64,000 nucleotides of DNA from Elusimicrobia bacterium CG1_02_56_21 (GCA_001871115.1 MNUR01000077.1:4589-68588); one strand, 5' to 3'; shown: positions 40,998-58,120, numbered from the stretch's first letter. Notes: generated by a model not told the origin, from the sequence alone. Translations and numbers: made by a program.

Positions 40998-42248
40998 TTA
41001 TTTAAGCAATGAAAGATATTTTCTGAGGGCTTCAATGAAGAAAGCGGTGTCCCGCGGGGTATTGTAGGCGAAGAAGGAGATCCTTATGGTTTCGCGGAAA
41101 CCGGAGGCGAGGCAGGCCAGGTCTGCGCAATGGCGGCCGGTGCGGACGGCTATAAAGCGGCCCTTCAGCTGCAGGTTGAGGAACTGGTTAAAATCAGGGA
41201 TTGAAAAACTCTTTTTCTCGGGGACCATAGAAATAAGCGACCCCTCGGCCAGGTCTTCACGCTCTCCCAGCACGCGCACGCCATTCATACCTTCAAGAAG
41301 ATCCAGCCCGCCCGACACCAGGCCCGAAATATGCTTTCTGATATTTTCAAATCCGCATTTTTCCAGCCGCTTAATAGTAACCGCCAGGGCGGAGGCGCCG
41401 GAGTAATTCTGAACCCCCGCTTCGAAACCCTGGTAATTTTCCAGGTACTTGACCTTGTAGCGCCCTCCCGCCACGGAGACGTCCTCTATGGTTCCGCCGC
41501 CGACCCTCCAGGGGCGCAGCTTGCCCATCAGCTCCCGCTTTACATAAAGCGCCCCGGTGCCGTAAGGCGCCCCTATCTTATGCCCTGAAAAAGCGCAGGC
41601 GTCCGCGCCGCAAAGGGCGCCGCCGCCTGCATGCGAGGGGGCGAACTGCGCGTCGTCCGCAAAAAAATATGCTCCTGCGCTGTGGGCCAGGGCCGCCGCG
41701 GAGGAGATATCCTCGCGCCCGCCGAATATATTGGAGGCGTGGGTAAAACAGACCAGGGCGGTCCTGGGTCCCAGCATTTTAGCGTAAGTTTTCATGTCCG
41801 GCTTAAGACCGCCGAGCGGGACCACCCTCAGCTTTATTTTGCCGGCGGCCGCGAGGCGCTCGAAAGGCAGGAAAACGGCGTTATGTTCCAGCGGCGAAAG
41901 TATGACCTCGCTGCGCCCGGGAGTGAAGGGGAAGGCATTGGCCAGCAAATTTACCGCGTCCGTAACTCCCGAGGTGAAAATAATCTCTGCGGGGGAGCGG
42001 GCGCCCATAAAAGAAGCCACGGCGGCGCGCGCGGAGTGGAAATTCTCTTCCATTGCCAAGGCCAGGGCGTGCACGGAGCGTTTCCCCCCGCAGCCGCCAA
42101 GCTTCAGCATATGGCGCTGCTGTTCCCGCGCTGCGCAGCGCATTTTAAGAACGGTGCAGGCGCTGTCCAGATAAACCATGCGGCGGCCCCCGAACCGCGC
42201 GCCCAGCGCGGGAAATTCCTTTTTAAGAGCGGCTATTTTTTCTTTCAT
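40998..42248 (-). CDS. class V aminotransferase / cysteine desulfurase-like (last gene of the rSAM operon)
   Basis: PLP-lysine motif FSGHKIGAPYGTGALYV; 416 aa. ATGA overlap with the upstream rSAM gene. Confidence 0.85.
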   Translation of the reverse strand: MKEKIAALKKEFPALGARFGGRRMVYLDSACTVLKMRCAAREQQRHMLKLGGCGGKRSVHALALAMEENFHSARAAVASFMGARSPAEIIFTSGVTDAVNLLANAFPFTPGRSEVILSPLEHNAVFLPFERLAAAGKIKLRVVPLGGLKPDMKTYAKMLGPRTALVCFTHASNIFGGREDISSAAALAHSAGAYFFADDAQFAPSHAGGGALCGADACAFSGHKIGAPYGTGALYVKRELMGKLRPWRVGGGTIEDVSVAGGRYKVKYLENYQGFEAGVQNYSGASALAVTIKRLEKCGFENIRKHISGLVSGGLDLLEGMNGVRVLGEREDLAEGSLISMVPEKKSFSIPDFNQFLNLQLKGRFIAVRTGRHCADLACLASGFRETIRISFFAYNTPRDTAFFIEALRKYLSLLK

Positions 42249-43087
42249 AAATTCTTATGTACGGCGATATAATCTTTCCTGGGCCCGGGGCAAAGCCTGA
42301 AGAAACGGCAGCCCCGGCAGGCAGGCACACGCTTCTTCTCCAGCAAATGCGGGCCTCTGAGCCCTTTCCTCATTTTTACCATATCAACGCTGAGCCGGTA
42401 AAATTCACCGAGGAAACAGGGCGGGATATGGTCCACCTCGCATTTTATTTTGTTCGCCCGGCACAGAGCCAGGGCCCGCTCAAGATAAGGTTTCACCGCT
42501 TTATATTCAGGCAGGAACCTGGCCCCCGCTCTGCCGGCGCCTTTTATATAGCTGAACTGGAGCCAGGCCGCCCCCTTCAGTTGTTTGGCCGCGAAAGCGG
42601 CGAAAGCGGGCAGGAGGCGGTAATTGAGGGAGCTGATAACATGGGTCAGCCGCACGGCAGCCCCGGCTTTTATAAGCCTCCTGACCCCTTCAAGCCTTTT
42701 TTCAAAACCGCCGCGGGCCCGGGTGATCTTAAAATCCAGAGCGGCCGATGAAGCGGGAAAGTTTATATTAAAATAACCGCCCGCGGCGTTCAGCGCGCGG
42801 ATTATTCTTAAAAGGTCAGCTTCGGGCATGGACGCCGCGAGCAGAGCGTTGCTCTGAAGCTCGGCTTTTCGGCCCATCTTCTTTACCCCTGCAAGGAGGA
42901 GCTGCAGGGCCGCGGCGCCGGCCAGCAGCGGCTCCCCGCCGGAGATCTGGACGGGCCCGGCCGGCATTGCGGCTATCTCTTTAAGCCAGTTTTTCAAAGA
43001 GTCGGGTTCGTCAGCGCCCTGTTCAGCCGGGTAGGAGCAGAACACGCAGCGCTGGTTACATTTGCGGAAAAGGTGTATTAAAGCCAT
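42245..43087 (-). CDS. radical SAM enzyme, short auxiliary-cluster family (paralog group 1b)
   Basis: CNQRCVFC at the N-terminus, GGEP motif, conserved IPPC plus C-terminal CRGCRFFRLC. Confidence 0.85.
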   Translation of the reverse strand: MALIHLFRKCNQRCVFCSYPAEQGADEPDSLKNWLKEIAAMPAGPVQISGGEPLLAGAAALQLLLAGVKKMGRKAELQSNALLAASMPEADLLRIIRALNAAGGYFNINFPASSAALDFKITRARGGFEKRLEGVRRLIKAGAAVRLTHVISSLNYRLLPAFAAFAAKQLKGAAWLQFSYIKGAGRAGARFLPEYKAVKPYLERALALCRANKIKCEVDHIPPCFLGEFYRLSVDMVKMRKGLRGPHLLEKKRVPACRGCRFFRLCPGPRKDYIAVHKNL

Positions 43088-44271
43088 TTTTCAATTTCTT
43101 CGTATGGTTTTGCCAGCGACCAGTAATAAGTCCCGCGCGAGAACCGGCTTTTTACCAGGCCTTTCCGGGCAAGGCGGCCGGCCGAGTTCATTACCGCGTT
43201 ACCGTCGGAGCAATCGCGGCAGAGCACGATATTTTTGGAAAGTTTAAGTGTCTCTTTGGTGGAAGCCTCTTTTCTTCCTTTCAGTATCTCTACAAGGCAG
43301 CGCTCGTTATCCGAGAGGAAGATCCTGCCGGGGGCAGGCCCTTCTTCCGGGCCGGCTCCCGCTCCGACCGGAGTAAACCCTTTCCAGCCGAATATTTTCA
43401 CATAATGCCCGTCGGCACCGCCGCATTTCTTAGCCAGTGCGCACTTCCGGCAGGGAGGACCCTTAACCTTCGCGGCTTCCGCGTTCGCGTCCAGGTCCGT
43501 ACTTTTTCCGTCCGGGTCGGTTACCACCGTATTAAACGAATCGAGCCCTATCGCCAGGGTCTCGCGCCCCTTGATAAAGCAGGGCGGGGTATTGAGAAAA
43601 AGTATCTCTCCGGGCAGGCCCGCTCCCTCCATCGTCTTTACGGCCCGGAGAAAATGAGGGGCGCATTCCGGCAGGCTCACTCCCAGTTTCTTGGCGTTGG
43701 CGGCCATAGCCCCGATATAGACCGGGTAGATGATGACGAAATTGGTTATCCCCCGCTCCAGGTAGAATTTAATTATTTCGGGGAGCCGGTTATAGTTGCG
43801 GCGATTGACCAATATATTGGTGCCCACTCTTATTTTAAGGGAGCGCAGGTTCTTAAGCCCGGCCAGCGCTTTTTTAAAAGCGCCGGGGACCCCTACCAGG
43901 GCGTCATGGGCCTTTTCATTGTCGGTTGTGAAAGAGAATTTACAGAACGTCAGGCCGGCCCTGGCCAGCTTGCCGCAGAAAGCGGCGTCGGCCAGCTTTA
44001 TCCCGTTGGTCTGCACCCGTATAAAGTCGAACCCTACCGACTTGCCGAGCCCTATCACCTTGAGAATATCCGGCCTTATCAGAGGCTCCCCGCCGGTCAG
44101 GCCCAGCCTGCCGTAGCCGGCCTTACGGGCGGCGTAGATATTGCGGGCGATAGCTTCGAACGGCGCGTTGCGGGACTTGTCAAAGTCCCCCTGCGAGCAA
44201 AAAAGGCAGCGCGCATTGCAGTTATAGTTGAGTATCAGCTCGTAACATTTTCCGGTAGCTTTTTTTGCCAT
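43078..44271 (-). CDS. radical SAM enzyme, short auxiliary-cluster family (group 1a) with about 90-aa C-terminal extension
   Basis: CNARCLFC, LTGGEPLIRPD, HDALVGVPGAFKK, TPPC plus CRKCALAKKC, then an extra domain (ERCLVEILKGRKEASTKETLKL...YYWSLA). Confidence 0.85.
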   Translation of the reverse strand: MAKKATGKCYELILNYNCNARCLFCSQGDFDKSRNAPFEAIARNIYAARKAGYGRLGLTGGEPLIRPDILKVIGLGKSVGFDFIRVQTNGIKLADAAFCGKLARAGLTFCKFSFTTDNEKAHDALVGVPGAFKKALAGLKNLRSLKIRVGTNILVNRRNYNRLPEIIKFYLERGITNFVIIYPVYIGAMAANAKKLGVSLPECAPHFLRAVKTMEGAGLPGEILFLNTPPCFIKGRETLAIGLDSFNTVVTDPDGKSTDLDANAEAAKVKGPPCRKCALAKKCGGADGHYVKIFGWKGFTPVGAGAGPEEGPAPGRIFLSDNERCLVEILKGRKEASTKETLKLSKNIVLCRDCSDGNAVMNSAGRLARKGLVKSRFSRGTYYWSLAKPYEEIEKWL

Positions 44272-44279
44272 ATAGAATA

Positions 44280-45275
44280 TTAAAGGCCGTGGATGCGCCT
44301 GAACAGCGGGCTTGAAAGCCCGGCTTTGGCCGCCGCTTTAAGCCAGAGCGAAGAGATCTTCCTGGCCCGGGCCTGGCCGGGAGGGACCGGCCCGGGCTTA
44401 GCCCTGAACCGCGCCGCGGCCCAGGGCGCGGCGGGGCACATCGACTGCGAGGAATTTATCCCGCTCCCGGCGGCCAGCCTGAAAAACTTCTGCCGGCCCT
44501 TTCCGTCCGCTGCGACGCGCAACGGCGAGATCATTGCGGCGGGCCCCGAAAGCATCTTGTCGCAGGGATAAAAAAAACCGTCGGGGGCCAGTGTAATATT
44601 CCTGCAGGGTCCCGGGCGCGCTCCTCCGGCCGCCTGCGCGATAGCTTCATACCCGTTGGCGAGTTCCCACACCCCGCGCCCTTTCCGCAGGCGCACAAGA
44701 TACTCCAGGCGCAGCTCTTTTGCAGAGGAAGCGAGCCTGGACAGAGCGGCCTTGTTCCAGGGGGCTGTTATATCCGGCGCCCAGGCCAGGCGCTCGAATC
44801 CCAGGCCGAGCAACCGGGTAATGACGGCTACGAGCTGCCCGGCTTTGTCGGGCGTTATGACCGCGCTGGCGCAGGCTTTTTTCCGCAGCCGGGGCGGCAG
44901 ATTTTTCAGGGCCTTCTTTTCTTCGCAGGCCCCGCCCAGGCTTACGGTAAGCTTTATCCCCCGGCCCAGCAGCCGCGCCGCCTCGCCTTTTTCAAGAAGC
45001 AGCCCGTTAGTGAACAGGTGTACCGGCGCGCCGGGGCCGAAAAGTTTCCTTATCCGGTCCAGCGCGCAGTACAAAAGATCCCGGCAGAGCAGCGGCTCCC
45101 CCCCGAGCACGGTAAACTTAGGGGCTTCCGGCCTGGCCGCCGCGAATGAAGCCAGGGCCGCCAGCAGGGCGCGCCGGGAGATAGTGCCGCCGGAGACGCC
45201 GGAAGCGTAGCAGTAGGAGCAGGAGAGGTTGCAGCGCCCGCTCAGGTAAATAACAAGATGGTCAGGTCTGGTCAT
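44280..45275 (-). CDS. radical SAM enzyme with twitch/SPASM-like C-terminal motif (group 3)
   Basis: CNLSCSYC, LGGEPLL, CRNITLAPDGFFYPC (Cx9-15Gx4C). Paralog of 54932-56014. Confidence 0.85.
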   Translation of the reverse strand: MTRPDHLVIYLSGRCNLSCSYCYASGVSGGTISRRALLAALASFAAARPEAPKFTVLGGEPLLCRDLLYCALDRIRKLFGPGAPVHLFTNGLLLEKGEAARLLGRGIKLTVSLGGACEEKKALKNLPPRLRKKACASAVITPDKAGQLVAVITRLLGLGFERLAWAPDITAPWNKAALSRLASSAKELRLEYLVRLRKGRGVWELANGYEAIAQAAGGARPGPCRNITLAPDGFFYPCDKMLSGPAAMISPLRVAADGKGRQKFFRLAAGSGINSSQSMCPAAPWAAARFRAKPGPVPPGQARARKISSLWLKAAAKAGLSSPLFRRIHGL

Positions 45276-46242
45276 CGCTTGATCTGTGCCGCAGGCCGCC
45301 GGGCCCGCGCTTCAGTTTCTTTACCGGCTTAAGCTCTCTGTCGCCGTAATTCTTCAGGTATTCCACCCAGATCCCCTCGCAGGCGGAATAGAGGAGGCAG
45401 CCGCGGCAGCGCGCCGTTTTCCTGCGGCCGAGCGCCGCGCGCGAACCGATAGCGTCCGTGTTTACAAAATCCGGGGCCCAGTGCTCGGTCAGGAAAAGGG
45501 TTTTCTCGTTTATCTCGCTTATCTGCTCGAGGCAGCCGGTGAAATGGCAGAGGGGGACGTACCTCGCCTTCCACTGGTCCATTCCGGAGCGCAGCCCTAT
45601 TTCCAGCGCCCGCCGCATGAAAGGCGCGGCTTTGGAGATGCGCGGGACCAGGACCTGAAAATTATTTTTAGCGCCGCCGTAATTAGGGTCTACGAAGATA
45701 TACTCTACATTCCTTATTTTATTGCGGACGTAAAAAGCGGCGAGCCGCGGCAGCGCGGACATATTCTGCTTTACCACGGTGGTGTTGCCGTTGATCCGCT
45801 TAAAGCCCAGTGCCTTAAGGTTTGCGAGCCCCTTTTTAAGCTGGCTGAAACTGCCGGAAGCCCGGGTAAGCGCGTCATGCACCCGCGCGCCGGGCCCGTG
45901 CACCGAGAAGATCAGGGAATCTATCCCGGAAGCCACTATTTTTTTAGCAGCCGCCATGTCCGCAAATACCCGGCCGTTCGTAGCGCAGGCCACCTCGGCT
46001 ATGCCCAGCTTTTTGGCGGCCTTTACCACCCGGCTGAAATCAGGGCGTATAGTGGCTTCCCCGCCTATTATCTCCAGTATATCGGCGCCTTTATTTTTAG
46101 CCTGCAGAACCTCGCGCAGAAGCTCAGCCGTGCTTTTCTCCGGCAGGCCGCGCTTGTCCGAGTCTATGCAGAAAGCGCAGTTATTGTTGCAGGCGTAGCC
46201 GGTAAATATGACTATCTTGAGTTTTTTCCCGTTCTTTTTCAT
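45262..46242 (-). CDS. radical SAM enzyme, short auxiliary-cluster family (group 1b)
   Basis: CNNNCAFC, IGGEATIRPD, VHGPGARVHDAL, VPLC plus CRGCLLYSAC...ELKPVKK. Confidence 0.85.
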   Translation of the reverse strand: MKKNGKKLKIVIFTGYACNNNCAFCIDSDKRGLPEKSTAELLREVLQAKNKGADILEIIGGEATIRPDFSRVVKAAKKLGIAEVACATNGRVFADMAAAKKIVASGIDSLIFSVHGPGARVHDALTRASGSFSQLKKGLANLKALGFKRINGNTTVVKQNMSALPRLAAFYVRNKIRNVEYIFVDPNYGGAKNNFQVLVPRISKAAPFMRRALEIGLRSGMDQWKARYVPLCHFTGCLEQISEINEKTLFLTEHWAPDFVNTDAIGSRAALGRRKTARCRGCLLYSACEGIWVEYLKNYGDRELKPVKKLKRGPGGLRHRSSDDQT

Positions 46243-50448: not shown

Positions 50449-51361
50449 TTGCGCCCCGCTTTCTTTTTTCCCGGGCAGGCTTGAACTCGCTCCAGCCGTA
50501 GAGCTCCGGGTACTCGCGCCAGGGGCCCTCGCAGACCTTGAACCATTTGCAGGAGCGGCATTCCGCGCGTTTTACCTTGCCTTCGTCGCGGCGGTAATCT
50601 CCATAGCTTTCGATATAAAGGTCCGCGTCTGAAACCGGCCCCTCGGGGATCACGCTCTCGGCCACGCATTTCTCGTAACCTTTCATAAGGCAGTACGGAA
50701 TGGCCTCCGTAAAGCAGGGGATGTCTTTACTAATGCCGCAGTCCAGAGCCCGGTGCAGATACGGGACTATGTCGGTTTTCCTGGGAGTCAGCCATTTCCG
50801 GTTCTCCCAGGCCGATCCCACCAGGTGCACAAAAGCGAACTGGAACTGGTCTACCTTGAGATAAGCCAGGAGCTTGGCCAGCTCGGGCAGGTCTTTGTAA
50901 TTGACGGAAGTGATGACCGAATTGGTCAAAACGAACATCCCGAGTTTTTTGCAGTTCAATATTCCCTGCACCACTTCTTTAAAGCTGCCTTTGGCACCTG
51001 TAAGCTTCTCGTGAATTTCCGGCCTGGAGCCGTGCATGGACGGCCCCATCTCGGTAACGCCTGCTTTTTTCAGCTCGGCGCAGTAATCGTAATAGGCGAA
51101 GCGGCGGCCGTTGGTCTGCACCTGAACGCTTTCATAACCCATCTTGCGCGCGGCGCGTACCGCAGCCGGCAGGCCGGGGTGGAGAGTTGGTTCGCCGCCG
51201 GTAAAAACCACGGCGCTGACTCCGGTTTTCCTGGCCCGGGCCAGGTCGGACTTTATCTCGGCCAGGCTTTTACGGGCCGCAAGAGAGCGCTTCGCGCCCT
51301 GGGCGCAGAAGTCGCACATATTATTGCAGTTGAAGCCTATTTTTATGTCGATGCGTTTCAT
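50345..51361 (-). CDS. radical SAM enzyme, short auxiliary-cluster family (group 1b)
   Basis: CNNMCDFC, FTGGEPTLHP, IPYC plus CRSCKWFKVC...EFKP. The 3' end overlaps the next gene by 104 nt in another frame. Confidence 0.85.
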   Translation of the reverse strand: MKRIDIKIGFNCNNMCDFCAQGAKRSLAARKSLAEIKSDLARARKTGVSAVVFTGGEPTLHPGLPAAVRAARKMGYESVQVQTNGRRFAYYDYCAELKKAGVTEMGPSMHGSRPEIHEKLTGAKGSFKEVVQGILNCKKLGMFVLTNSVITSVNYKDLPELAKLLAYLKVDQFQFAFVHLVGSAWENRKWLTPRKTDIVPYLHRALDCGISKDIPCFTEAIPYCLMKGYEKCVAESVIPEGPVSDADLYIESYGDYRRDEGKVKRAECRSCKWFKVCEGPWREYPELYGWSEFKPAREKRKRGANEKVRRHLQRGQGQSPGPAGSGCRRGGNRLPRGF

Positions 51362-53541
51362 TTTACGGCCTTCAAGCCTTTTACTGCGAATTTTTCGGAA
51401 TAACCTTTAGCCGGCCCCGGGCACTTAAGGAGGAATTTGCACTTCAGGCACAGCTTGGGTTTCAGCGCCCCGGCCGCCCCGCCCGATTCTCTTGCGTCCC
51501 CGGACGCGCTTCCCTGCAGGTAGTCGGCGGACAGCTTCCAATGCGGGTAAAGAGCGCAGAGAGGAACCCTGAGGAACTTGACAGGCAGCCCGCTGCAGGC
51601 CGCCGCTTCGGCCAGCGGGCGCAAAGCCGCATAATCAGAGACTATATTCCCGGTTCCTTCAGGGAAAGCCAGGATAATGCTGCCGGCCCCGGCTTTCACA
51701 AAACTCCCAGCCGCGCCAAGCAGCCCGGCCGGGACGGGCTTTCGTATAACCCCCACCATGCAAACGGCAAGACCGGCAGCTGAAGCGCTCCTGACCTGCG
51801 CAAGGTCAGCAGGGCGCGCGCTTTCCGCTTTGAACATAAAATTATCCGCCCCGGCCGACCTGAGCGCGGAGAAATATCCCGCGTCGCGCGGCAATGCCGA
51901 GAGCAGCGAAACTTTTTTAAAACCGGCCTTCGCGGCGCAGCGCACGGCGCCCAGCTCCAGGCTGCCGGGACCGCCCGGCCGTCCGCAGATTATCAGGGCC
52001 TCAGAGCGGCCGGAATTGGCGGCGGTTAAAAGTGCCAGAGCAATTTCCCGGGAGGTCAGTTCCGGACCGGATTGAGGCGCCCCGTAAAGAAGGCTTTCTA
52101 CCCCGCCGGCAAGGCACAGCTCGAACTCGCCCGCCGCAGTTTTATTAAAGTCCGGGGGCGCAAGAACCGCCGCCGAAGACCTGGCGGGGGAAACTTTCCC
52201 GTAGATCTCTTCCAGGCGCCTTACCACGCCGGGAGAATAAAACTCGCGGCGCAATTCGCAGGTGGCGCGCTCCCTGTCTTTCACCTGCAGGGACCTGCCG
52301 GAGACCGACAGGACTCCGGAACTCAGCAGCCTTTTTATCTTACCGGGAAAAGCGGCCCCCGGGCCTACACCAAAGCGGCGCCGGAAAGTCTGCTTATCCA
52401 CCTGTCCGCGGTGCAGCGCGTCCAGTATCACAAAATTCGCCATCTCGTCTTTTTGGCTCAGCAGGGCGCCGGCTTCCGTAGGCAGCCTGCCTGCCGAGAG
52501 TTCGGACTCATAAAGCCTCTCGTCCGGAACATTGCGGTACCTGATCCCGTTCATCGCATAGGACACGGAGCTGGGACCCAGCCCGAGTATGGAATAAGAA
52601 CCTTCTTCCCCCTGGTCGTAACTGTAGGGCCACCAGTCGCCTTTGCGCTTATACACCCAGTGACCGCAGCGCATTTTATAGCCCTTGTCGAAAAGAATAT
52701 CCATCCCGCGGCGGCGCCAGGCCCTGGCGTCTTCCAGCGCATTTCCCTCCAGGGAACCGCCTTTGCCCCCGGCAGTGGTGCGGTACTTGGGCTGGAAATC
52801 AAAAAGATAAACTCTTTCCACGTCCAGGGCGGCAGTCGTCCTGACGTCTTTGAGAAAACTTTTTTCCGTCTGACCCGGCAGGCCGGTAATAAGGTCAACC
52901 TCTACCTGCAGGATACCGGCTTTCTTCGCCTGCTTTATAACCTCTATGGTCCGAGCCGGGTCCTGACGCCTCCCGAGAGCTTTCAGCAGCAGCGGATCGA
53001 AACTCTGCACTCCTATAGCCAGCCACTCCACTCCCGCAGCTTTGAGATAAGCCAGCTTAAGCGCGTCGAGCGTATTGGGGCTGGCCTCAAAAGCTATCCT
53101 GGTCTTCGGGGTTATTTTAAAATATGCGCGCAGTATTCCGAAAAGCCTTTCCAGCTGCGGGATGGTCAGCAGGCTGGGAGTCCCCCCTCCTATGCAAAGA
53201 AACCGCAGCGGCCGCCCTTTAAAGAGCGGGCCCATTATCGCTGTTTCCTTCTCGAGGGCGTCGAGGTAGCGGTCCACGGCCCCGGGAGCCGAATGGATCT
53301 TATAGAAGCCGCAAAAACGGCACAGCGTCTCGCAGAATGGGACATGGACATAGACCACGGGCCGGCGCCCGCCGTCCGACTTAAGCGAGCGCACCCAGGC
53401 GGCCTTTGTCTTATCAGCACTGCTCAGCCGGGGCCAGGCGGCCATAGGCGGATAATTAGGCGGGGCCTCAGGCAGGGAGTCCCTGTCGACGCAGGCCAGC
53501 AGCCTTTCAAAAGATATAGTCGTCCGTTCTTTTTCCATCAT
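51358..53541 (-). CDS. HemN-like (class C) radical SAM enzyme fused to a degenerate copy of the short rSAM paralog domain
   Basis: N-terminal VHVPFCETLCRFCGFYK and IGGGTPSLL (HemN family). The C-terminal ~280 aa lack CxxxCxxC but keep VPLC plus CLKCKFLLKCPGPAKGY, as in the paralogs. 727 aa. Confidence 0.85.
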   Translation of the reverse strand: MMEKERTTISFERLLACVDRDSLPEAPPNYPPMAAWPRLSSADKTKAAWVRSLKSDGGRRPVVYVHVPFCETLCRFCGFYKIHSAPGAVDRYLDALEKETAIMGPLFKGRPLRFLCIGGGTPSLLTIPQLERLFGILRAYFKITPKTRIAFEASPNTLDALKLAYLKAAGVEWLAIGVQSFDPLLLKALGRRQDPARTIEVIKQAKKAGILQVEVDLITGLPGQTEKSFLKDVRTTAALDVERVYLFDFQPKYRTTAGGKGGSLEGNALEDARAWRRRGMDILFDKGYKMRCGHWVYKRKGDWWPYSYDQGEEGSYSILGLGPSSVSYAMNGIRYRNVPDERLYESELSAGRLPTEAGALLSQKDEMANFVILDALHRGQVDKQTFRRRFGVGPGAAFPGKIKRLLSSGVLSVSGRSLQVKDRERATCELRREFYSPGVVRRLEEIYGKVSPARSSAAVLAPPDFNKTAAGEFELCLAGGVESLLYGAPQSGPELTSREIALALLTAANSGRSEALIICGRPGGPGSLELGAVRCAAKAGFKKVSLLSALPRDAGYFSALRSAGADNFMFKAESARPADLAQVRSASAAGLAVCMVGVIRKPVPAGLLGAAGSFVKAGAGSIILAFPEGTGNIVSDYAALRPLAEAAACSGLPVKFLRVPLCALYPHWKLSADYLQGSASGDARESGGAAGALKPKLCLKCKFLLKCPGPAKGYSEKFAVKGLKAVK

Positions 53542-54932
53542 TGATATTTCTCCGCCCAGCGCTCCAGTATCTTCCTGGTCCCGGGACGGCTTAACTTCTC
53601 AAAAACTATATCGAACACGCCCATAAAGACCCGGCACCTGCCGCTGGTCATCATGTCCCCCCAAAAACTTCCCTGTGCGGCGTAATTATAGACAGGGGAG
53701 ACCCGGCAGTACGGGCTGTACGGGCAGCGCGCGCAGCGCGGCTGGGCCAGGCGCGGGAAGCAGGAGAGGATCAGTGTTTTCCCCAGCGGGGAGGAGACCA
53801 TCTCCCCGAAAGAACCGGTAACGGAGCCCAGCCTGAAAAAATCATTACCGCCTGCAGCAAGAAGCCGGGCCTCGTCCGAACCGTAAACAGAACCGTCCGG
53901 GCCGTAAGCCAGACGGTAAAGCAGGTCCAGGTTCTGGTAGCGCGGCCGCTCTCCGGTTACAATATGCTTGACGAACATAAGGGCGCCTTTCTCATAGACC
54001 TCTACCCCGGCACGGTTAAGCCTCAGCATATGGTCCAGCGCTTTGGAATAGAAGGGCAGGAACTCTTCCGGGGTAACCGCGAGGCCGCAATTCCCCGCGG
54101 CCCGGCCTATCGGTTCCAGCGGGCCCAGCTGCACGCGCGCTATGCCCCTTTTTAAAAATTCGTCCACTATCTCCCCCGGATAGGGCAGGGAATATTTGGT
54201 GACGGTACAGATAGCGTTGAGGCTTTCTATCCCGCCTTTGGCGGAGAGCTTGTTAACCAGGGCTATGGCACGCGCCGCCGCGGCGTGGCTGGAGCCTCCC
54301 AAAAGTTTACGCGCCCGGTCGTGAACGGGAGCCGGCCCGTCGAGAGAGGTGCATAAAGTTACCCCGCGGGAGGAAAGGTACGCCAGTTTTTCAGGATTAA
54401 GCCCCGCCAGGTTGGACACCATTGAAAAATGCAGGCCCCGCCCCGTCCTGGCGGCGCGGCTGCGGGCTTCCTCTATCAGGTACTTCACGACCCTGAAATT
54501 ACGCAGCGGTTCGCCGCCCTGGAATTCTATCACCAGCTCCCGCGACCCGGTCCTGAAAATAAAATCCAGGGTTTTTCCCGCCGTGGCCAGGGACATGTGC
54601 CGGCCGCCGGCGGCGGCCGAGGCGCCGCAATAAAGACAGGCGTGGTCGCAATCCCCCGTCACCGACACGATATGCACCCTGGGCCCGGCCCAGTCTTTAA
54701 GCAGGGCCGCGAAGTGGCCGGGGAGCAGCTTTTCAAAATCCAGAAGCCCGCTGAAGAAACCGCGGGCGCCCAGCGTCTCGTTCTCGGCGGCCGGCAGGGG
54801 CGCGCCCGAGGCGAAACGGGAGAGTGACGAGGCTTTTATTTCCGCGTTCCGCGAGAAATCGTTGGAAAGCAGGCAGGCCCCGCCGCGGCGGGCGAAGTTG
54901 AAATCGGAAGGCTGATTTTTCTTTGCCGCCAT
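53538..54932 (-). CDS. radical SAM enzyme, anSME-like paralog with degenerate SPASM domain (group 2)
   Basis: CDHACLYC, FQGGEPL, C-terminal CARCPYSPYC only. Start set to ATG 54932 (MAAKKNQ), overlapping the upstream stop (TGATG). The longer track ORF would overlap the upstream gene by 213 nt. Confidence 0.85.
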   Translation of the reverse strand: MAAKKNQPSDFNFARRGGACLLSNDFSRNAEIKASSLSRFASGAPLPAAENETLGARGFFSGLLDFEKLLPGHFAALLKDWAGPRVHIVSVTGDCDHACLYCGASAAAGGRHMSLATAGKTLDFIFRTGSRELVIEFQGGEPLRNFRVVKYLIEEARSRAARTGRGLHFSMVSNLAGLNPEKLAYLSSRGVTLCTSLDGPAPVHDRARKLLGGSSHAAAARAIALVNKLSAKGGIESLNAICTVTKYSLPYPGEIVDEFLKRGIARVQLGPLEPIGRAAGNCGLAVTPEEFLPFYSKALDHMLRLNRAGVEVYEKGALMFVKHIVTGERPRYQNLDLLYRLAYGPDGSVYGSDEARLLAAGGNDFFRLGSVTGSFGEMVSSPLGKTLILSCFPRLAQPRCARCPYSPYCRVSPVYNYAAQGSFWGDMMTSGRCRVFMGVFDIVFEKLSRPGTRKILERWAEKYQ

Positions 54933-56014
54933 CAGATATACCCCTTTTTGAATAATTTTATCAATTGCCTGAGATAAGCCTTCATTGCGGGTTCCGAAGC
55001 CGCGCGGGCCACTATTTCCCTGGCCGCGTCCCGGCAGACCCCGGTGCGCAGGGCATGGGCGCGGCTCCCGTCCGACAGACCGGGGAGGCGGTAATAGGAC
55101 CGCAAGCATTCCCGGCAGAGCTTCGAACCCGCTTTTGGCCTGCAAGCCAGATAGCGCCCAGCGAGGCCGCTCCCCGCGCTGCCCACCGCGGCCGCGCGGC
55201 GCTGCGCCGCCGTCTTCAGGAAAGGGTAAGGATAGAAAGACAAAGTTCCGTCCGGGAAAAGCTCGAGGTCGCGCAGGAACGGACAGAAAGAATTAGCGTA
55301 CTCTTTATCGCGGAGGAGTTCGAGCAGCGGCTCCAGGACCACGGGCTTCCCCGAAGCGGCGCGCTCCAGGGTGAACCGGGCTATCTTCCGCATTCCCCCC
55401 TCAAAAGCGGCGTAATCGGCGGCGCGCCAGGGAACCCCGTGCACGCACTCAATACCTATGTTCGCAAAACCCTGCTTCACCAGGCTCTGAAAATCTCCGT
55501 AAACCGCGGCGGCGCGGCGCGGGTGCACGCACAGGATAACGTGCAGGTTCTCTCCGAGCGCGGAAGTAAAAAGCGGGATCTTCTTTTCCACCGCGCTGTA
55601 GGAACCTTTGCCCGAAATAAATTTGCGCGACAGGTCATGGCTTCTCCCGCTGCCGGAGAAACTCACGGCGAACCTGGCGCCGCGCCCGGCCAGCCAGCCC
55701 AGTTCTTCGGGCCCGGCCAGAACCCCGTTGCTCGCGACGGAAACCGCCAACAGCTTGCCCAGTTTTTTAGCCCTGGCTATCGCCGCGGTTATTATCTTTT
55801 TAACAAGAACAAATTCCATCAGCGGCTCGCCGCCGTATATCTCGAGGGTTTTGCTCTTTCCCGGGGAACCCAGGAAGGCGTATACGGCCGCCGCCGCGTC
55901 CTTAAAAGGGATGGTCTCTGCCCTGCTTTTATCTATAAAACAATGGGTGCACCTCAGGCAGCAGCCCGAAGTCACGGCGATCTTGAATTTCAGAACTTCT
56001 TTATTGAACTTCAT
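54932..56014 (-). CDS. radical SAM enzyme with twitch/SPASM-like C-terminal part (group 3)
   Basis: GCCLRCTHC, YGGEPLM, CPFLRDLELFPDGTLSFYP. Paralog of 44280-45275. Confidence 0.85.
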   Translation of the reverse strand: MKFNKEVLKFKIAVTSGCCLRCTHCFIDKSRAETIPFKDAAAAVYAFLGSPGKSKTLEIYGGEPLMEFVLVKKIITAAIARAKKLGKLLAVSVASNGVLAGPEELGWLAGRGARFAVSFSGSGRSHDLSRKFISGKGSYSAVEKKIPLFTSALGENLHVILCVHPRRAAAVYGDFQSLVKQGFANIGIECVHGVPWRAADYAAFEGGMRKIARFTLERAASGKPVVLEPLLELLRDKEYANSFCPFLRDLELFPDGTLSFYPYPFLKTAAQRRAAAVGSAGSGLAGRYLACRPKAGSKLCRECLRSYYRLPGLSDGSRAHALRTGVCRDAAREIVARAASEPAMKAYLRQLIKLFKKGYI

Positions 56015-57021
56015 TTCTTTTTCTTAAGCAGCTTCTCCGCGCGCTTGAGCCTGTTATGGGACGGCAGAAGAGGGAAAGGCGCCGCCTCCTTTTTAACAGG
56101 CCTGAACTCTTTGCTGCCGAAAATATCGGAATACCATTTCTCGAACCCCATGCACCTGCCGTTATAGACGCAGCTGCTGCAGGACTTGTTCTTAAGGCAA
56201 AGCCTTTCTTTAAGGCCGTGTATCCTGTCTTCCCTGCCGTCAATATGAAAGAGCGGCTCGTCTGTTTTGGGAGCCGCGGGGCGCTCCCATTCGGCCATCA
56301 GGTGCGCGGCCTCGGGGATATTGCAGGGGCAGAAATTCACCAGCACAGAATCCTCTATAACGGCCCCGGAGCTCTTCAGGTACTCCAGAGCTTCCCGCAC
56401 ATAAGGCACAGCCTGCGTTACGCTGACTTTAAGCTCCCCGGCCCTTTCGGCCATCATCCCGTTATAGTGAGGGAAGATAACGTTAAAATCCTCTATGCCG
56501 AAACGGCCGCTGATAATTTCGAGAAGATTGCGCAGGGTTTTATAATTGGGCCCGGTAAGAGCGTGGTTAACAGAGATCTCGGCCCCGAGACGGGTCAGGT
56601 TTTCGAACGCCTTCATCACTTTTTTAAAAGCGCCGGGCACGCCCACAAGAGCATCGTGCAGCCCGGGGGTATGACCATGCACCGAGACCCGGAAAATATT
56701 AGCGCCCGCGTCCACAAGGGACTTCGCGTAGTCCGGGTCGGCAAGTTTCAGCCCGTTGCTCATAACCTGGACATAGGGGTAGCCCATCGAGCGCGCCAGC
56801 TTCACTATCTTCGGCAGGTCGGGGCGCATAGTTATTTCTCCGCCTATCAGGTAGGCGACCCAGCATTTTTCCATCCGGCCTTTGTACAGGGCCGCGGCCG
56901 CTTTTTCAAAGGGCATGCGCTCGGCCACCTGGTTCAGCACGGCGTCGGGGTGGTAGCAGAACCTGCACTTTGCGTTGCAGTCGTAATTGAGTATAACTTC
57001 GCAGTTCCTTGGTTTTATCAT
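56011..57021 (-). CDS. radical SAM enzyme, short auxiliary-cluster family (group 1a)
   Basis: CNAKCRFC, IGGEITMRPD, VHGHTPGLHDALVGVPGAFKK, CPC plus CSSCVYNGRC...EFRPVKK. Confidence 0.85.
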   Translation of the reverse strand: MIKPRNCEVILNYDCNAKCRFCYHPDAVLNQVAERMPFEKAAAALYKGRMEKCWVAYLIGGEITMRPDLPKIVKLARSMGYPYVQVMSNGLKLADPDYAKSLVDAGANIFRVSVHGHTPGLHDALVGVPGAFKKVMKAFENLTRLGAEISVNHALTGPNYKTLRNLLEIISGRFGIEDFNVIFPHYNGMMAERAGELKVSVTQAVPYVREALEYLKSSGAVIEDSVLVNFCPCNIPEAAHLMAEWERPAAPKTDEPLFHIDGREDRIHGLKERLCLKNKSCSSCVYNGRCMGFEKWYSDIFGSKEFRPVKKEAAPFPLLPSHNRLKRAEKLLKKKK

Positions 57022-57025
57022 TGGT

Positions 57026-58120
57026 TCAGGACCTGGAGGACCGGGGGCCGTCCCCGAACAGTGTTTTTACGCGGAAAGAAGAGGGCGCCCGCGACAGCGG
57101 TTTAAATTCCGCGCCGCCCAGAAGGGCCAGGTACTCCTTGTCGAAACCCCGGCATTTTTTATCAAGTACGCAGCGGGCGCAGTTCTTTGTCTTGGCGCTC
57201 TGGGTGTTTTTCATTTCGGCCATATTCACCGAAACCCCGTCCACCGGCATCAGCGGGTCCGCCCCCGCCGTCTCGGACTCCCAGTCCGCCAGCAAATTCA
57301 TATGTCCCGGCAGAAGGCAGGGAGTGAAATTCACAAGCATGCGGGAAAAAGCGGCTATCCCCGGCTTTTCGAGTATAGCGAGACCCTTTTTTATGTAAGG
57401 CAGCGTCAGGGATATTTTTACTTTGAGCCTGTCTTTATTAGCGGCCATTACCCCGCGGTAATGACCGTAGATGATGTTATAGTAATTCATCCCGAGTTCA
57501 TTGTAGGCGAAATCGAAAAAATCGGGAAAATGACGGTAGTTCAGGGAATTTACCACCTGGTTGGTCCCGGTCTCGCGCCCGAGCCGCCTGAGATTCTTTA
57601 CCGCCCGCACCGCGAGGTCAAAAGCGCCCGGCACGCCCACTAACTTATCATGAAGCGCGGCGGTATGCCCGTGCAGGGAGATATCGAACATATTGAAGCC
57701 GGCTCCGGCCATTTTAGCGGCGTAAGCGGGGTCAGCCAGCTTTGCGCCGTTGGTGCAGAGTTTGATGCAAGGGTAGCCCGCCTTGCGCGCGAAAGAGGCT
57801 ATTTTACCGATATCGCCCCGCAGCGTGGGCTCGCCGCCTATGATTGCGGCTATCCAGCAGCCCTGCCTGCGCCCGAGGTAAAGAGCTTTAAAAATATCCT
57901 CCAGCCTGGACTCGGGGCCGCCGGGCCCGAATGAACCGGGCTCGCTGTAGCAGAACAGGCATTTATTATTACACGCGGAATTCACCGTCACTTCGCAGAC
58001 CTTTGCTTTAAGGTTGACCGGCCAGCGTATATTGGCCAGGCGCGCCGGTATTTCGGACCTGTTAAGCCCCGGCATTTTACCCAGGGCGTATTTAATGTTT
58101 TCTTTCAAAAAAGGATTCAT
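57026..58120 (-). CDS. radical SAM enzyme, short auxiliary-cluster family (group 1a); first gene of the operon
   Basis: CNNKCLFC, IGGEPTLRGD, LHGHTAALHDKLVGVPGAF, TPC plus CARCVLDKKC...EFKPL. Confidence 0.85.
   Translation of the reverse strand: MNPFLKENIKYALGKMPGLNRSEIPARLANIRWPVNLKAKVCEVTVNSACNNKCLFCYSEPGSFGPGGPESRLEDIFKALYLGRRQGCWIAAIIGGEPTLRGDIGKIASFARKAGYPCIKLCTNGAKLADPAYAAKMAGAGFNMFDISLHGHTAALHDKLVGVPGAFDLAVRAVKNLRRLGRETGTNQVVNSLNYRHFPDFFDFAYNELGMNYYNIIYGHYRGVMAANKDRLKVKISLTLPYIKKGLAILEKPGIAAFSRMLVNFTPCLLPGHMNLLADWESETAGADPLMPVDGVSVNMAEMKNTQSAKTKNCARCVLDKKCRGFDKEYLALLGGAEFKPLSRAPSSFRVKTLFGDGPRSSRS

What the first reader, a model, noticed from the sequence alone, without database searches (positions are those of the whole stretch)
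42245..58120. Seven-fold expanded rSAM paralog family sharing four extra Cys and a C-terminal Y..G..E(F/L)KP tail
**Members.** The products of 57026-58120, 56011-57021 and 43078-44271 form group 1a. The products of 50345-51361, 47387-48280, 45262-46242 and 42245-43087 form group 1b. All are 280-397 aa and align along their length: CNxxCxFC, (I/T)GGEPT(I/L)xPD, (V/L)HG....HD...G..G.F.

**Extra cysteines.** All seven, plus the C-terminal half of the 727-aa HemN fusion, keep a P-x-C motif (IPPC, TPPC, VPLC, FPLC, IPYC, CPC, TPC, VPLC) about 60-90 residues before a CxxCx5C motif. Examples are CRGCLLYSAC, CRGCRLRRKC, CRSCKWFKVC, CSSCVYNGRC, CARCVLDKKC, CRKCALAKKC, CRGCRFFRLC and CLKCKFLLKC. Four conserved Cys fit one auxiliary 4Fe-4S cluster of twitch type.

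**Tail.** Most members then have x-G-x4-Y-x4-G-x2-E-(F/L)-(K/R)-P.

**Inference.** Seven tandemly used paralogs in one operon suggest iterative, site-specific chemistry on one substrate.
Basis: partly seen in the sequence, partly recalled or inferred. Interest (0 to 1): 0.65.

Follow-up and report, generated by a model that had tools for sequence, protein, structure and literature searches.

The report
Expanded HxsC-type radical SAM maturase set
The seven look-alike radical SAM enzymes are real, ancient paralogs of HxsC, the maturase of the His-Xaa-Ser (HXS) system. They sit in a roughly 32-kb, 17-radical-SAM locus of a groundwater Elusimicrobia bacterium, and the likely substrate, a His-Gly-Ser repeat protein, is encoded just outside the window.

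Summary
**Observation.** It is confirmed. Seven minus-strand genes between 42245 and 58120 encode homologous radical SAM (rSAM) proteins. All have CxxxCxxC, GGE(P), one upstream PxC cysteine, CxxCx5C-G and a Y..G..E(F/L)(K/R)P tail. An eighth, degenerate copy of the four-Cys module ends the 727-aa HemN-like fusion.

**Family.** These are features of HxsC, the rSAM maturase of the HXS system, and annotated proteobacterial HxsC share them. All seven score below the curated HxsC and HxsC4 cut-offs and lack the canonical N-terminal domain.

**Missing parts.** A 99.94 % identical contig continues past the window's right end. It carries two HxsD-like genes, a third HxsB and an HxsA4 precursor with 13 HxS triplets.

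**Recurrence.**
- The paralogs are 18-38 % identical to each other, and most have 1:1 orthologs across Elusimicrobia.
- Loci with 4-8 copies recur in CPR bacteria, Omnitrophota and DPANN archaea.
- Single polypeptides with 2-5 fused modules exist.

**Reading.** This is most likely a multi-enzyme maturation line acting on one exported repeat protein. Assigning one paralog per repeat is unlikely, because repeat number varies while the paralog set stays fixed.

**Limits.** The "twitch" label fits the predicted topology but is unproven. The chemistry is unknown.

**Verdict.** New variant of a known kind.

The parts
57026..58120 (-). HxsC-like rSAM paralog 'A364' (364 aa). First gene of the minus-strand operon. 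It has a ~40-aa N-terminal extension.
   Evidence: Pfam Radical_SAM 1.2e-18. NCBIfam HxsC4 108.9 bits (cut-off 500) and HxsC 88.1 bits (cut-off 267.9). Cysteines: C50/C54/C57 plus C268, C314, C317, C323.
56011..57021 (-). HxsC-like rSAM paralog 'B336' (336 aa).
   Evidence: HxsC4 94.7 bits, HxsC 77.4 bits. 38 % identical to A364. Auxiliary Cys at 233, 281, 284 and 290.
54932..56014 (-). Short rSAM enzyme (360 aa), best matched by the PapB model. Not a member of the paralog family.
   Evidence: NCBIfam PapB 89.1 bits, below the 340 cut-off. No hit to the HxsC-like HMM at E <= 1e-10. Ortholog in L007 at 36 % identity.
53538..54932 (-). Second HxsB-like rSAM enzyme (464 aa from the ATG at 54932). 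The 535-aa TTG ORF is an over-call.
   Evidence: TIGR03978 HxsB 311.3 bits, below the 370 cut-off. Called as 464 aa on public contigs.
51358..53541 (-). 727-aa fusion. An N-terminal HemN-like rSAM domain with HemN_C is followed by a degenerate HxsC-like domain. The degenerate domain has lost CxxxCxxC but keeps the four-Cys module (last ~80 aa, about 51358-51600).
   Evidence: Pfam Radical_SAM 2.1e-25 and HemN_C 4.4e-6. HxsC-like HMM matches residues 650-727 at 24.7 bits in the whole protein, and at 26.8 bits when the C-terminal half is scored alone. Cys at positions 195, 231, 234 and 240 of the C-terminal 260 aa.
50345..51361 (-). HxsC-like rSAM paralog 'D338'. This is the most widely conserved orthogroup. 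Its real length is probably ~305 aa.
   Evidence: HxsC4 141.8 bits and HxsC 95.2 bits. More than 120 ortholog clusters at >=56 % identity, mostly Elusimicrobia where named. Orthologs in many phyla. AF2 model with pLDDT 95. 1-nt deletion relative to L001.
49720..50448 (-). PP-loop ATPase of the diphthine-ammonia ligase (Dph6) type, 242 aa.
   Evidence: Pfam Diphthami_syn_2 2.7e-13. TIGR03679 60.6 bits, below the cut-off. Ortholog in L007.
48284..49741 (-). HxsB: rSAM/SPASM maturase of the His-Xaa-Ser system.
   Evidence: TIGR03978 441.8 bits, above the 370 cut-off. SPASM domain present. 34-40 % identical to annotated plasmid HxsB.
47387..48280 (-). HxsC-like rSAM paralog 'E297'. It is the closest to canonical HxsC and lies directly downstream of HxsB, as in canonical systems.
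   Evidence: TIGR03977 HxsC 154 bits over model positions 32-288 of 292, cut-off 267.9. Groups with annotated HxsC in the NJ tree.
46239..47390 (-). Polytopic membrane protein (383 aa). Probably a divergent type IV leader peptidase (A24) homolog, and a candidate HxsA4 leader peptidase.
   Evidence: The window protein itself has no Pfam hit. 10 of 30 orthologs hit Peptidase_A24, best E 4.4e-6. D23 and G95-D96 are invariant. Some orthologs are named prepilin peptidase by NCBI. Conserved in the locus core. Foldseek against PDB found nothing.
45262..46242 (-). HxsC-like rSAM paralog 'F326'.
   Evidence: HxsC4 134.4 bits and HxsC 86.1 bits. Orthologs at 54-76 % identity in Elusimicrobia, and at 45-50 % in a few loci of other phyla.
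44280..45275 (-). Short rSAM enzyme (331 aa), best matched by the PapB model. Not a family member.
   Evidence: PapB 54.3 bits. No hit to the HxsC-like HMM at E <= 1e-10.
43078..44271 (-). HxsC-like rSAM paralog 'C397', with a conserved ~90-aa C-terminal extension (43078-43359) that looks like a winged helix.
   Evidence: HxsC 94.9 bits and HxsC4 87.1 bits. Orthologs of 388-397 aa keep the extension. Only sub-significant hits for the extension: S10_plectin at E 0.15.
42245..43087 (-). HxsC-like rSAM paralog 'G280'. It is the most divergent and lacks the E(F/L)KP tail.
   Evidence: HxsC 70.6 bits. Orthologs at 56-73 % identity in close Elusimicrobia. Cys at 224, 257, 260 and 266.
40998..42248 (-). 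SufS/CsdA-like cysteine desulfurase. Last gene of the operon.
   Evidence: Aminotran_5 6.2e-72. TIGR01979 253.6 bits, below the cut-off. Conserved at the end of the locus in L008.
58275..59627 (+). Divergently transcribed HemN-like rSAM enzyme (450 aa).
   Evidence: Radical_SAM 1.3e-18. HemN-family hits, all below their cut-offs.
61985..63451 (-). B12-binding rSAM enzyme (488 aa). Part of the upstream half of the locus.
   Evidence: B12-binding 3.7e-12 and Radical_SAM 5.4e-16. Continuation of the locus shown.

Best explanation
**What it is.** The seven proteins are HxsC-type radical SAM enzymes. They belong to an expanded variant of the His-Xaa-Ser (HXS) protein-maturation system, associated with an HxsA4-type precursor. 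The host is an Elusimicrobia bacterium from groundwater.

**Each enzyme.**
- It binds SAM at the CxxxCxxC cluster.
- It carries one C-terminal auxiliary [4Fe-4S] cluster. The ligands are the PxC cysteine and CxxCx5C. A beta-hairpin and a helix lie between them.

**Partners.**
- Three HxsB-type SPASM enzymes and two HxsD-like small proteins.
- Three short rSAM enzymes best matched by PapB.
- Two HemN-like and two B12-dependent rSAM enzymes.
- A Dph6-like PP-loop ATPase and a SufS-like desulfurase.

**Proposed action (inferred).**
1. The enzymes modify one ribosomal substrate in the cytoplasm. The substrate is the 106-aa HxsA4 protein: a basic N-terminus, an invariant SEEGK motif, a transmembrane helix, 13 H-(G/S/A)-S triplets and an ARGGWC end.
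2. The different paralogs most likely perform different chemical steps, or act on different residue types, rather than on different repeat positions.
3. The embedded A24-like membrane peptidase is the likely leader-processing enzyme.

**What is shown and what is inferred.**
- Shown: homology, Cys conservation, locus content, recurrence and fusions.
- Inferred: the substrate assignment, the division of labour, the cluster type and the biological role.
For: **Family identity.**
- HxsC or HxsC4 is the top NCBIfam hit for all seven.
- Annotated HxsC from Acidiphilium and Paraburkholderia plasmids share the same four Cys, the Gly and the (K/R)P tail.

**Locus context.**
- An HxsB above its cut-off (441.8 bits) lies directly upstream of the most HxsC-like paralog.
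- A contig with 7 mismatches in 12,016 nt continues upstream of the window. It carries HxsD, HxsB (494 bits), a second HxsD-like gene, a Cys-rich secreted protein and HxsA4. HxsA4 scores 71.3 bits on NF038313, above the 55-bit cut-off.
- HxS-repeat precursors occur in 27 of 94 fetched loci, and most share one leader. They come from Elusimicrobia, CPR, Omnitrophota, Myxococcota and DPANN.

**Functional coupling.**
- Conserved 1:1 orthologs and gene order across Elusimicrobia loci.
- Loci with 4-8 paralogs in many phyla.
- Fused polyproteins with 2-5 HxsC-like modules.

**Auxiliary cluster.**
- The four Cys are 97-100 % conserved in 231 sequences.
- The AF2 model (pLDDT 95) has the order C224, hairpin 243-250, helix 253-261, C268/C271/C277.
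- Mutating the second cluster of E. coli HxsC impairs function (PMC13128918).

**Peptidase.**
Against: - All seven proteins are below the curated HxsC and HxsC4 cut-offs (best 154 against 267.9, and 141.8 against 500).
- They lack the ~90-130-aa N-terminal domain of canonical HxsC.
- HxsA4 and HxsD are not in the window itself, and no HxS repeat occurs in any frame of it.
- 67 of the 94 fetched loci show no HxS-repeat ORF within +/-10 kb.
- Some related loci instead carry NifH-like genes next to the D338 ortholog.
- The locus also holds HemN-like and B12 rSAM genes and an amine-oxidase-like gene. These would suit small-molecule chemistry.
- No biochemical data exist for any member of this variant.
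- The chemistry of canonical HxsC is itself unresolved (+8 Da, PMC13128918).
Confidence: 0.6

Rival explanations
1. **Small-molecule cofactor pathway.** The rSAM suite, including the HxsC-like paralogs, tailors a tetrapyrrole or another small molecule into a new cofactor. This was proposed for the rSAM-rich loci next to group VI nitrogenase-like genes in Elusimicrobia. The HxS protein would be a bystander or a carrier.
For: - Meheust et al. (10.1101/765248) describe up to 13 rSAM genes beside NifH/D/K paralogs in Elusimicrobia, with HemN_C and B12 fusions.
- NifH-like genes lie next to, or a few kb from, D338 orthologs in L042 (GWA2_56_46), L026 and L069.
- The locus holds HemN-like rSAM genes, B12 rSAM genes and a gene with weak protoporphyrinogen-oxidase-like hits.
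Against: - No NifH P-loop occurs in any frame of the window, and none was found in the fetched loci that extend it.
- HxsB, HxsD and HxsA4, which are the signature of a protein-maturation system, are in the same locus.
- Canonical HxsB/C/D act on a protein (PMC13128918).
- Precursors with a conserved leader travel with the paralogs across domains of life.
Confidence: 0.15
2. **Separate substrates.** The paralogs do not converge on one substrate. Each serves a different protein, or they are redundant variants kept for robustness. Candidate substrates are the Cys-rich 355-aa secreted protein, the CCKL-ending protein upstream of HxsD, or unlinked targets.
For: - Paralogs are only 18-38 % identical, so their specificities probably differ.
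- Other conserved non-enzymatic proteins sit in the locus, namely a 345-361-aa Cys-rich protein and a 248-275-aa protein.
- Many loci with a D338 ortholog have only one family member.
Against: - Fusion of 2-5 modules into one polypeptide and conserved gene order indicate joint function.
- Only one recognisable precursor-type gene with leader and repeat architecture lies in the locus.
Confidence: 0.15
3. **Scaffold subunits.** Several of the seven are catalytically inert scaffolds or chaperones of a hetero-oligomeric complex in which only one or two enzymes are active. This resembles the degenerate eighth module.
For: - The 727-aa fusion shows that a module can lose its rSAM cluster yet keep the four-Cys module.
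- G280 is very divergent and has lost the tail.
Against: - All seven keep CxxxCxxC and the GGE SAM motif.
- Across 231 family members the three rSAM Cys are 100 % conserved.
Confidence: 0.1

Closest known systems
HxsC (TIGR03977), radical SAM maturase of the His-Xaa-Ser (HXS) system. Defined by Haft & Basu 2011 (from my own knowledge) and shown to be an anti-phage system in E. coli (PMC13128918).
   Same: - rSAM core, upstream PxC, CxxCx5C-G and a (K/R)P tail.
- Lies next to HxsB.
- The locus also encodes HxsD-like proteins and a His-Xaa-Ser repeat protein.
   Different: - Scores are 70-154 bits against a cut-off of 267.9.
- There is no N-terminal ~90-130-aa domain.
- There are seven paralogs plus a degenerate module instead of one gene.
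- The locus is ~32 kb with 17 rSAM genes instead of four genes.
- The hosts are Elusimicrobia, CPR and DPANN, whereas 99.7 % of described HXS systems are in Pseudomonadota.
- The precursor has 13 or more HGS-type repeats and a conserved SEEGK leader.
HxsC4 / HxsA4 (NCBIfam NF038332 and NF038313), curated 'rare' type-4 variants of the HXS components. No publication on them turned up in two literature searches on HXS terms.
   Same: - HxsC4 is the best NCBIfam hit for A364, B336, D338 and F326.
- The neighbouring precursor passes the HxsA4 cut-off, 71.3 against 55.
- NCBI already names some Elusimicrobiales and Omnitrophota relatives HxsA4.
   Different: - The window proteins reach only 62-142 bits against the HxsC4 cut-off of 500, so none is an HxsC4 by the curated rule.
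- The sources read here do not mention a multi-paralog architecture.
The 'extensive suite of radical SAM proteins' next to group VI nitrogenase-like (Nfl) genes in groundwater Elusimicrobia (Meheust et al. 2020, 10.1101/765248; reviewed in PMC13474568).
   Same: - Same phylum and habitat.
- The same kind of rSAM-dense locus, with up to 13 copies and with HemN_C and B12 fusions.
- D338 orthologs lie beside NifH-like genes in L042 (GWA2_56_46), L026 and L069.
   Different: - The window and its extension hold no Nif-like gene.
- In the passages read, that paper did not identify the rSAM genes as HxsB- or HxsC-like and did not report an HxS-repeat precursor. It proposed a tetrapyrrole substrate.
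Twitch- and SPASM-domain rSAM enzymes with solved structures (BlsE 7vob, SkfB 6efn, GDGT-MAS 7tol, SuiB 5v1t, anSME 4k36, MoaA 1tv7, BtrN 4m7s).
   Same: - These are the best Foldseek and HMM matches for the core.
- The predicted order of elements resembles an abridged SPASM (= twitch) module: Cys, beta-hairpin, helix, then CxxCx5C. The comparison with SPASM and twitch rests on my own knowledge of those structures.
   Different: - There are only four Cys, enough for one cluster, and the fourth Cys of the SPASM CX2CX5CX3C motif is missing.
- The C-terminal module alone finds nothing in PDB sequences.
- The best structural alignments cover mainly the barrel, 202-238 columns.

Membership tests
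HxsC (TIGR03977, equivalog) | Whole-protein score at or above the curated cut-off (267.9 bits). | tested here: not met
   The scores are 154 (E297), 95.2, 94.9, 88.1, 86.1, 77.4 and 70.6 bits.
HxsC (TIGR03977, equivalog) | rSAM CxxxCxxC plus a C-terminal second cluster motif (upstream Cys and CxxCx5C), as in annotated HxsC. | tested here: met
   These columns are invariant in the alignment with two annotated HxsC. They are 97-100 % conserved in 231 relatives.
HxsC (TIGR03977, equivalog) | Genomic pairing with HxsB, and presence of HxsD and an HxS-repeat HxsA in the locus. | tested here: met
   HxsB (441.8 bits, above 370) lies directly upstream of E297. HxsD-like genes score 35-44 bits, below the 50-bit cut-off. 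HxsA4 scores 71.3 bits, above 55. Both are on the 99.94 % identical contig just beyond the window, not inside the window.
HxsC (TIGR03977, equivalog) | The N-terminal ~90-130-aa domain that precedes the rSAM core in canonical HxsC. | tested here: not met
   The window paralogs start 10-18 residues before CxxxCxxC (50 in A364). The annotated HxsC have ~95-130 extra residues.
HxsC4 (NF038332, exception model) | Score at or above 500 bits. | tested here: not met
   The best score is 141.8 bits, for D338.
Twitch-domain radical SAM enzymes | A single auxiliary Fe-S cluster in an abridged SPASM fold (beta-hairpin plus helix) after the partial TIM barrel. | tested here: inconclusive
   The AF2 secondary structure places a hairpin (243-250) and a helix (253-261) between C224 and C268/C271/C277. 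Twitch enzymes BlsE and SkfB are top Foldseek hits, but over 202-223 columns only. The C-terminal module profile finds no PDB sequence.
SPASM-domain radical SAM enzymes | Seven or eight Cys for two auxiliary clusters, including CX2CX5CX3C. | tested here: not met
   Only four conserved extra Cys are present, and the fourth Cys of the motif is replaced (C-x-G-P/F). No Pfam SPASM hit for any of the seven.
Canonical four-gene HXS anti-phage system (PMC13128918) | [quoted passage not shown] | tested here: not met
   The locus spans ~32 kb with 17 rSAM genes. HxsA4 is 106 aa with 13 HxS triplets, and its only Pfam match is a weak Collagen-repeat hit at E 0.04. An anti-phage role cannot be tested with these tools.

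The most novel reading that the evidence does not exclude
The multi-HxsC loci of Elusimicrobia, CPR bacteria, Omnitrophota and DPANN archaea are assembly lines. In them, up to 17 radical SAM enzymes, sometimes fused into 2-5-module polyproteins, convert a ribosomal (His-Gly-Ser)n repeat protein into a heavily cross-linked or derivatised product. Possible products are a peptide-derived metallocofactor, a metal-binding polymer or an envelope polymer.

The 'novel cofactor' postulated for the group VI nitrogenase-like systems would then be peptide-derived rather than tetrapyrrole-derived.

The presence of a Dph6-like PP-loop enzyme hints at multi-step histidine modification analogous to diphthamide synthesis.
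Probability: 0.2. Interest if true: 0.85.

Novelty: new variant of a known kind. Interest (0 to 1): 0.62.

Why it matters
- **A natural dissection of HxsC chemistry.** HXS was shown only in 2026 to be an anti-phage system, and the chemistry of HxsB and HxsC is still unknown (a +8 Da change). This variant splits HxsC-type chemistry over seven conserved paralogs and adds about ten further rSAM enzymes. The substrate is a simple 13-repeat sequence that should be easy to follow by mass spectrometry.
- **Wider distribution.** It extends the HXS machinery from Pseudomonadota to Elusimicrobia, CPR, Omnitrophota and DPANN archaea.
- **Rare architecture.** Multi-module rSAM polyproteins are unusual among radical SAM enzymes, to my knowledge.
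- **A testable alternative.** It offers a peptide-substrate alternative to the published tetrapyrrole hypothesis for the rSAM-rich loci beside group VI nitrogenase-like genes.

Tried and rejected
- **HxS repeats, HxsD motif and NifH P-loop in the window.** A six-frame search found none. The precursor turned up only after fetching the contig beyond the window.
- **Locus search with alignment A1.** It was repeated with A2.
- **C-terminal four-Cys module against PDB sequences.** Zero hits at E <= 10. Homology of CxxCx5C to the SPASM motif could therefore not be shown by sequence. Only anSME aligned across that region, and only in the full-length profile search.
- **Foldseek of the membrane-protein model.** No match better than E 0.49. 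The A24 assignment rests on Pfam hits of orthologs only.
- **C-terminal extension of C397.** Pfam and PDB searches gave only sub-significant winged-helix hints.
- **PADLOC.** Only generic rSAM similarity to pVip, and no defence-system assignment.
- **Rfam.** No family in the window.
- **Promoter and terminator scan.** Uninformative. Terminator-like sites are at the level expected from shuffles.
- **One paralog per repeat position.** Rejected, because repeat number varies from 7 to 18 among loci with 5-7 family members each.
- **Recent tandem duplication.** Rejected, because of 1:1 orthologs across genomes and 18-38 % identity between paralogs.

Full report
**1. What is in the window**

The region 40998-58120 is one tightly packed minus-strand operon of 15 genes. 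Most junctions overlap or are separated by only a few bases.

- Twelve of the 15 gene products carry a CxxxCxxC radical SAM (rSAM) motif.
- Two more rSAM genes lie just upstream, at 58275-59627 (+) and 61985-63451 (-).
- Identical or near-identical proteins occur on groundwater metagenome contigs. Where a source names the close homologs, they come almost only from Elusimicrobia genomes assembled from metagenomes (MAGs).

**2. Check of the observation**

The alignment also includes the C-terminal 260 residues of the 727-aa protein. It has invariant columns for one upstream Cys (the PxC), the three Cys of CxxCx5C, the following Gly and a Tyr.

I built an HMM from this family and searched 94 related loci. 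Among 231 full-length members:

| Feature | Conservation |
|---|---|
| Four extra Cys | 97-100 % |
| Pro of PxC | 93 % |
| Gly after the third Cys | 98 % |
| Tyr | 93 % |
| Tail Gly / Glu / Pro | 85 / 79 / 77 % |

Five points need correcting:

- The PxC-to-CxxC spacing is 25-48 residues, not 60-90.
- The 280-aa member has no tail.
- In the 727-aa fusion only the last ~80 residues are significantly similar (26.8 bits), and the rSAM triad is lost.
- Group 1b is not a clade.
- The 338-aa ORF is lengthened by a 1-nt deletion relative to a near-identical contig. Orthologs are ~300-306 aa.

**3. What the family is**

For all seven, the best NCBIfam models are HxsC (TIGR03977) or HxsC4 (NF038332). 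HxsC is the His-Xaa-Ser system radical SAM maturase. All scores are below the curated cut-offs: 70-154 bits against 267.9, and 62-142 bits against 500.

- The gene at 48284-49741 is a bona fide HxsB (441.8 bits, cut-off 370).
- It lies directly upstream of the 297-aa paralog, the most HxsC-like of the seven. This reproduces the canonical HxsB-HxsC order.
- A second HxsB-like gene lies at 53538-54932 (311 bits).

I fetched annotated HxsC genes from an Acidiphilium plasmid and a Paraburkholderia plasmid. They share exactly the same four Cys, the Gly and a (K/R)P tail. The window paralogs lack the ~90-130-residue N-terminal domain of canonical HxsC.

**4. The missing parts lie just outside the window**

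No His-Xaa-Ser repeat, HxsD motif or NifH P-loop occurs in any frame of the window. A contig that differs from the window at 7 of 12,016 overlapping positions continues 9.4 kb beyond the right end. Its genes, in order, are:

1. HxsD-like protein (155 aa).
2. HxsB (486 aa, 494 bits).
3. A second HxsD-like protein (106 aa).
4. A Cys-rich secreted protein (355 aa).
5. A 106-aa protein that passes the curated HxsA4 model (71.3 bits, cut-off 55).
6. A further rSAM enzyme (389 aa), best matched by the PapB model.
7. A B12-dependent rSAM enzyme (706 aa).
8. An amine-oxidase-like protein.
9. A nucleotidyl transferase, whose C-terminal end is window 63448-63996.

The HxsA4 protein has a basic N-terminus, an SEEGK motif and a hydrophobic helix. 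It then has 13 H-(G/S/A)-S triplets and ends in ARGGWC.

From the first HxsD-like gene to the SufS-like gene, the whole locus is about 32 kb and holds 17 rSAM genes.

**5. Recurrence and age**

Each window paralog has its own ortholog, in conserved order, in other Elusimicrobia.

- Five of the seven (C397, D338, E297, F326, G280) have orthologs at roughly 40-80 % identity (31 % for G280 in L007) in at least eight loci.
- The paralogs themselves are only 18-38 % identical to one another.
- The expansion is therefore ancient and maintained, not a recent tandem duplication.

A scan of one genome per species found relatives of the D338 orthogroup across many lineages:

- Elusimicrobia.
- CPR bacteria (Falkow-, Sacchari-, Moran- and Parcubacteria).
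- Omnitrophota.
- Myxococcota.
- A Planctomycetales MAG.
- DPANN archaea.

Loci with 4-8 family members within 20 kb recur in most of these groups. Most Polyangiaceae loci have one.

HxS-repeat ORFs occur in 27 of 94 loci. Twenty-three precursors share the leader (F/Y)LxSEEGK(M/I/L)-TM, even in archaea.

A profile search of 1.84 billion representative proteins found 4,161 clusters at E <= 1e-30. The top hits are single polypeptides with 2-5 HxsC-like modules, for example P0244 (1,318 aa) and P0241 (1,054 aa). Each module keeps its own CxxCx5CxG and tail. Such fusions are classical evidence that the paralogs act together. They also show that the tail is part of the fold rather than a free C-terminal docking peptide.

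**6. The auxiliary cluster**

An AlphaFold2 model of the D338 paralog is confident (pLDDT 95, pTM 0.91). It places C224, then a beta-hairpin (243-250), then a helix (253-261), then C268/C271/C277. From my knowledge of the published structures, this order of elements resembles an abridged SPASM (twitch) module.

- The best Foldseek matches include the twitch enzymes BlsE and SkfB, GDGT-MAS, viperins and SuiB.
- Most of those alignments cover only the barrel.
- The C-terminal module alone finds nothing among PDB sequences.

Independent support for a functional second cluster comes from E. coli HxsC. There, C342A/C345A lowers HxsA processing and abolishes defence (PMC13128918).

My reading: one auxiliary [4Fe-4S] cluster is very likely. 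'Twitch type' is plausible but unproven.

**7. Other parts that bear on mechanism**

- **383-aa membrane protein (46239-47390).** It sits in the conserved core of the locus. The window protein has no Pfam hit, but 10 of 30 orthologs match Peptidase_A24, and D23 and G95-D96 are invariant. It is a candidate leader peptidase for HxsA4, perhaps cutting at the invariant EEG|K. This is inference, and the fold search gave nothing.
- **Dph6-like PP-loop ATPase (49720-50448).** It belongs to the family of the enzyme that amidates diphthine, a modified histidine. This is suggestive, given a His-repeat substrate.
- **SufS-like desulfurase (40998-42248).** It ends the operon and could feed Fe-S assembly or sulfur insertion.

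**8. How it most likely works**

- *Shown:* an HXS-type locus with one HxsA4 precursor, three HxsB, two HxsD-like proteins, seven HxsC-like enzymes plus one degenerate module, and further rSAM, ATPase, desulfurase and peptidase genes.
- *Inferred:* the cytoplasmic rSAM enzymes modify the His/Ser repeat region of HxsA4 before leader processing and export.

The paralogs probably carry out different steps, or act on different residue types, rather than on different repeat positions. Repeat number varies from 7 to 18 among Elusimicrobia loci that each carry 5-7 family members.

**9. Rivals**

- **Small-molecule pathway.** Meheust et al. [quoted passage not shown] That suite includes this family: NifH-like genes lie next to or near D338 orthologs in L042 (GWA2_56_46), L026 and L069. 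The window and its extension have no Nif-like gene, and they do have the precursor, HxsB and HxsD. I therefore rank a small-molecule pathway lower (0.15), but it is not excluded.
- **Separate substrates (0.15) and inert scaffold subunits (0.1).** These are discussed in the rival entries.

**10. Comparison with what is known, and novelty**

The described HXS system is a four-gene anti-phage module. 99.7 % of known examples are in Pseudomonadota, and more than 99.8 % have four proteins.

NCBIfam curators have models named HxsA4 and HxsC4. NCBI already labels some Elusimicrobiales and Omnitrophota proteins HxsA4. Two literature searches on HXS terms found no paper describing any of the following:

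- the multi-paralog architecture;
- the fusions;
- the spread into CPR and DPANN;
- the link to the Nfl-associated rSAM suite.

I therefore class the finding as a new variant of a known kind, with interest 0.62. The chemistry and the biological role remain open.

Noticed in passing
window ~50479 (within 50345-51361, minus strand); compare L001:7780-7960 with L002:7780-7960: A 1-nt deletion in a C run, relative to a near-identical contig, shifts the frame just after the EFKP tail. The ORF grows from 305 to 338 aa and overlaps the next gene by ~100 nt. This is either a strain polymorphism or an assembly error.
   Followed up: yes
window 46239-47390 (-): A 383-aa polytopic membrane protein sits in the conserved core of the locus. 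It looks like a divergent type IV prepilin (A24) peptidase: 10 of 30 orthologs hit PF01478, and D23 and GD95-96 are invariant. It is a possible leader peptidase for the HxsA4 precursor. Foldseek found no PDB match.
   Followed up: partly
window 43078-43359 (-), C-terminal ~90 aa of the 397-aa paralog: An extension conserved in orthologs resembles a winged helix-turn-helix (for example ...RLARKGLVKSRFSRGTYYWSL...). It could be a leader-recognition element. Only sub-significant hits were found (S10_plectin, E 0.15).
   Followed up: partly
L010:3985-4305 (equivalent to about 5.1-5.5 kb beyond the window's right end, minus strand); also L007:2279-2629 and 20 other loci: HxsA4-type precursors share one leader across bacteria and DPANN archaea. 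The order is: a basic N-terminus, (F/Y)LxSEEGK(M/I/L), a transmembrane helix, often H(T/S)NYF, then 3-37 HxS triplets. They usually end in GGWC, GSY or GSW.
   Followed up: partly
proteins P0241, P0244, P0245; also L043:12893 and L031:9965 ORFs: Single polypeptides carry 2-5 tandem HxsC-like rSAM modules. In P0244 an N-terminal rSAM module with its own CxxxCxxC, outside the family, precedes them. Each family module has its own CxxCx5CxG and E(F/I)xP boundary.
   Followed up: partly
L042:2561-4786, L026:16687-19209, L069:9133-9951: NifH-like P-loop genes lie next to or near orthologs of the 338-aa paralog. L042 is Elusimicrobia GWA2_56_46 and L069 is a Myxococcales MAG. This links the family to the published group VI nitrogenase-like loci. 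A fourth locus, L049, was flagged, but no tagged ORF appeared.
   Followed up: partly
window 49720-50448 (-): A PP-loop ATPase of the diphthine-ammonia ligase (Dph6) family lies inside a locus whose likely substrate is a histidine-repeat protein. It may hint at diphthamide-like multi-step His modification.
   Followed up: no
window 32820-40509 (-): Downstream of the operon is a run of minus-strand genes: M20 peptidase, an aspartate/ornithine carbamoyltransferase-like protein, a gamma-PGA-hydrolase-like protein, a weakly amino-acid-kinase-like protein, a PLP-dependent (PALP) enzyme and a PEP-utilising enzyme. The first three also follow the operon on other contigs. Whether they belong to the system is unknown.
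   Followed up: no
window 40510-40997: A 488-bp intergenic gap follows the SufS-like gene. It has repeated CGGAACGCAAAA-type motifs and GC-rich inverted repeats. No Rfam family matches it.
   Followed up: partly
window 59607-61250 (-) and L010:1-654, L010:2907-3974: Three conserved proteins of unknown function lie in the extended locus. One is a 547-aa protein with weak beta-propeller hits in its C-terminal part. One is a 355-aa Cys-rich secreted protein with relatives in L007 and L008. One is a protein ending in ...MCCKL upstream of HxsD.
   Followed up: no
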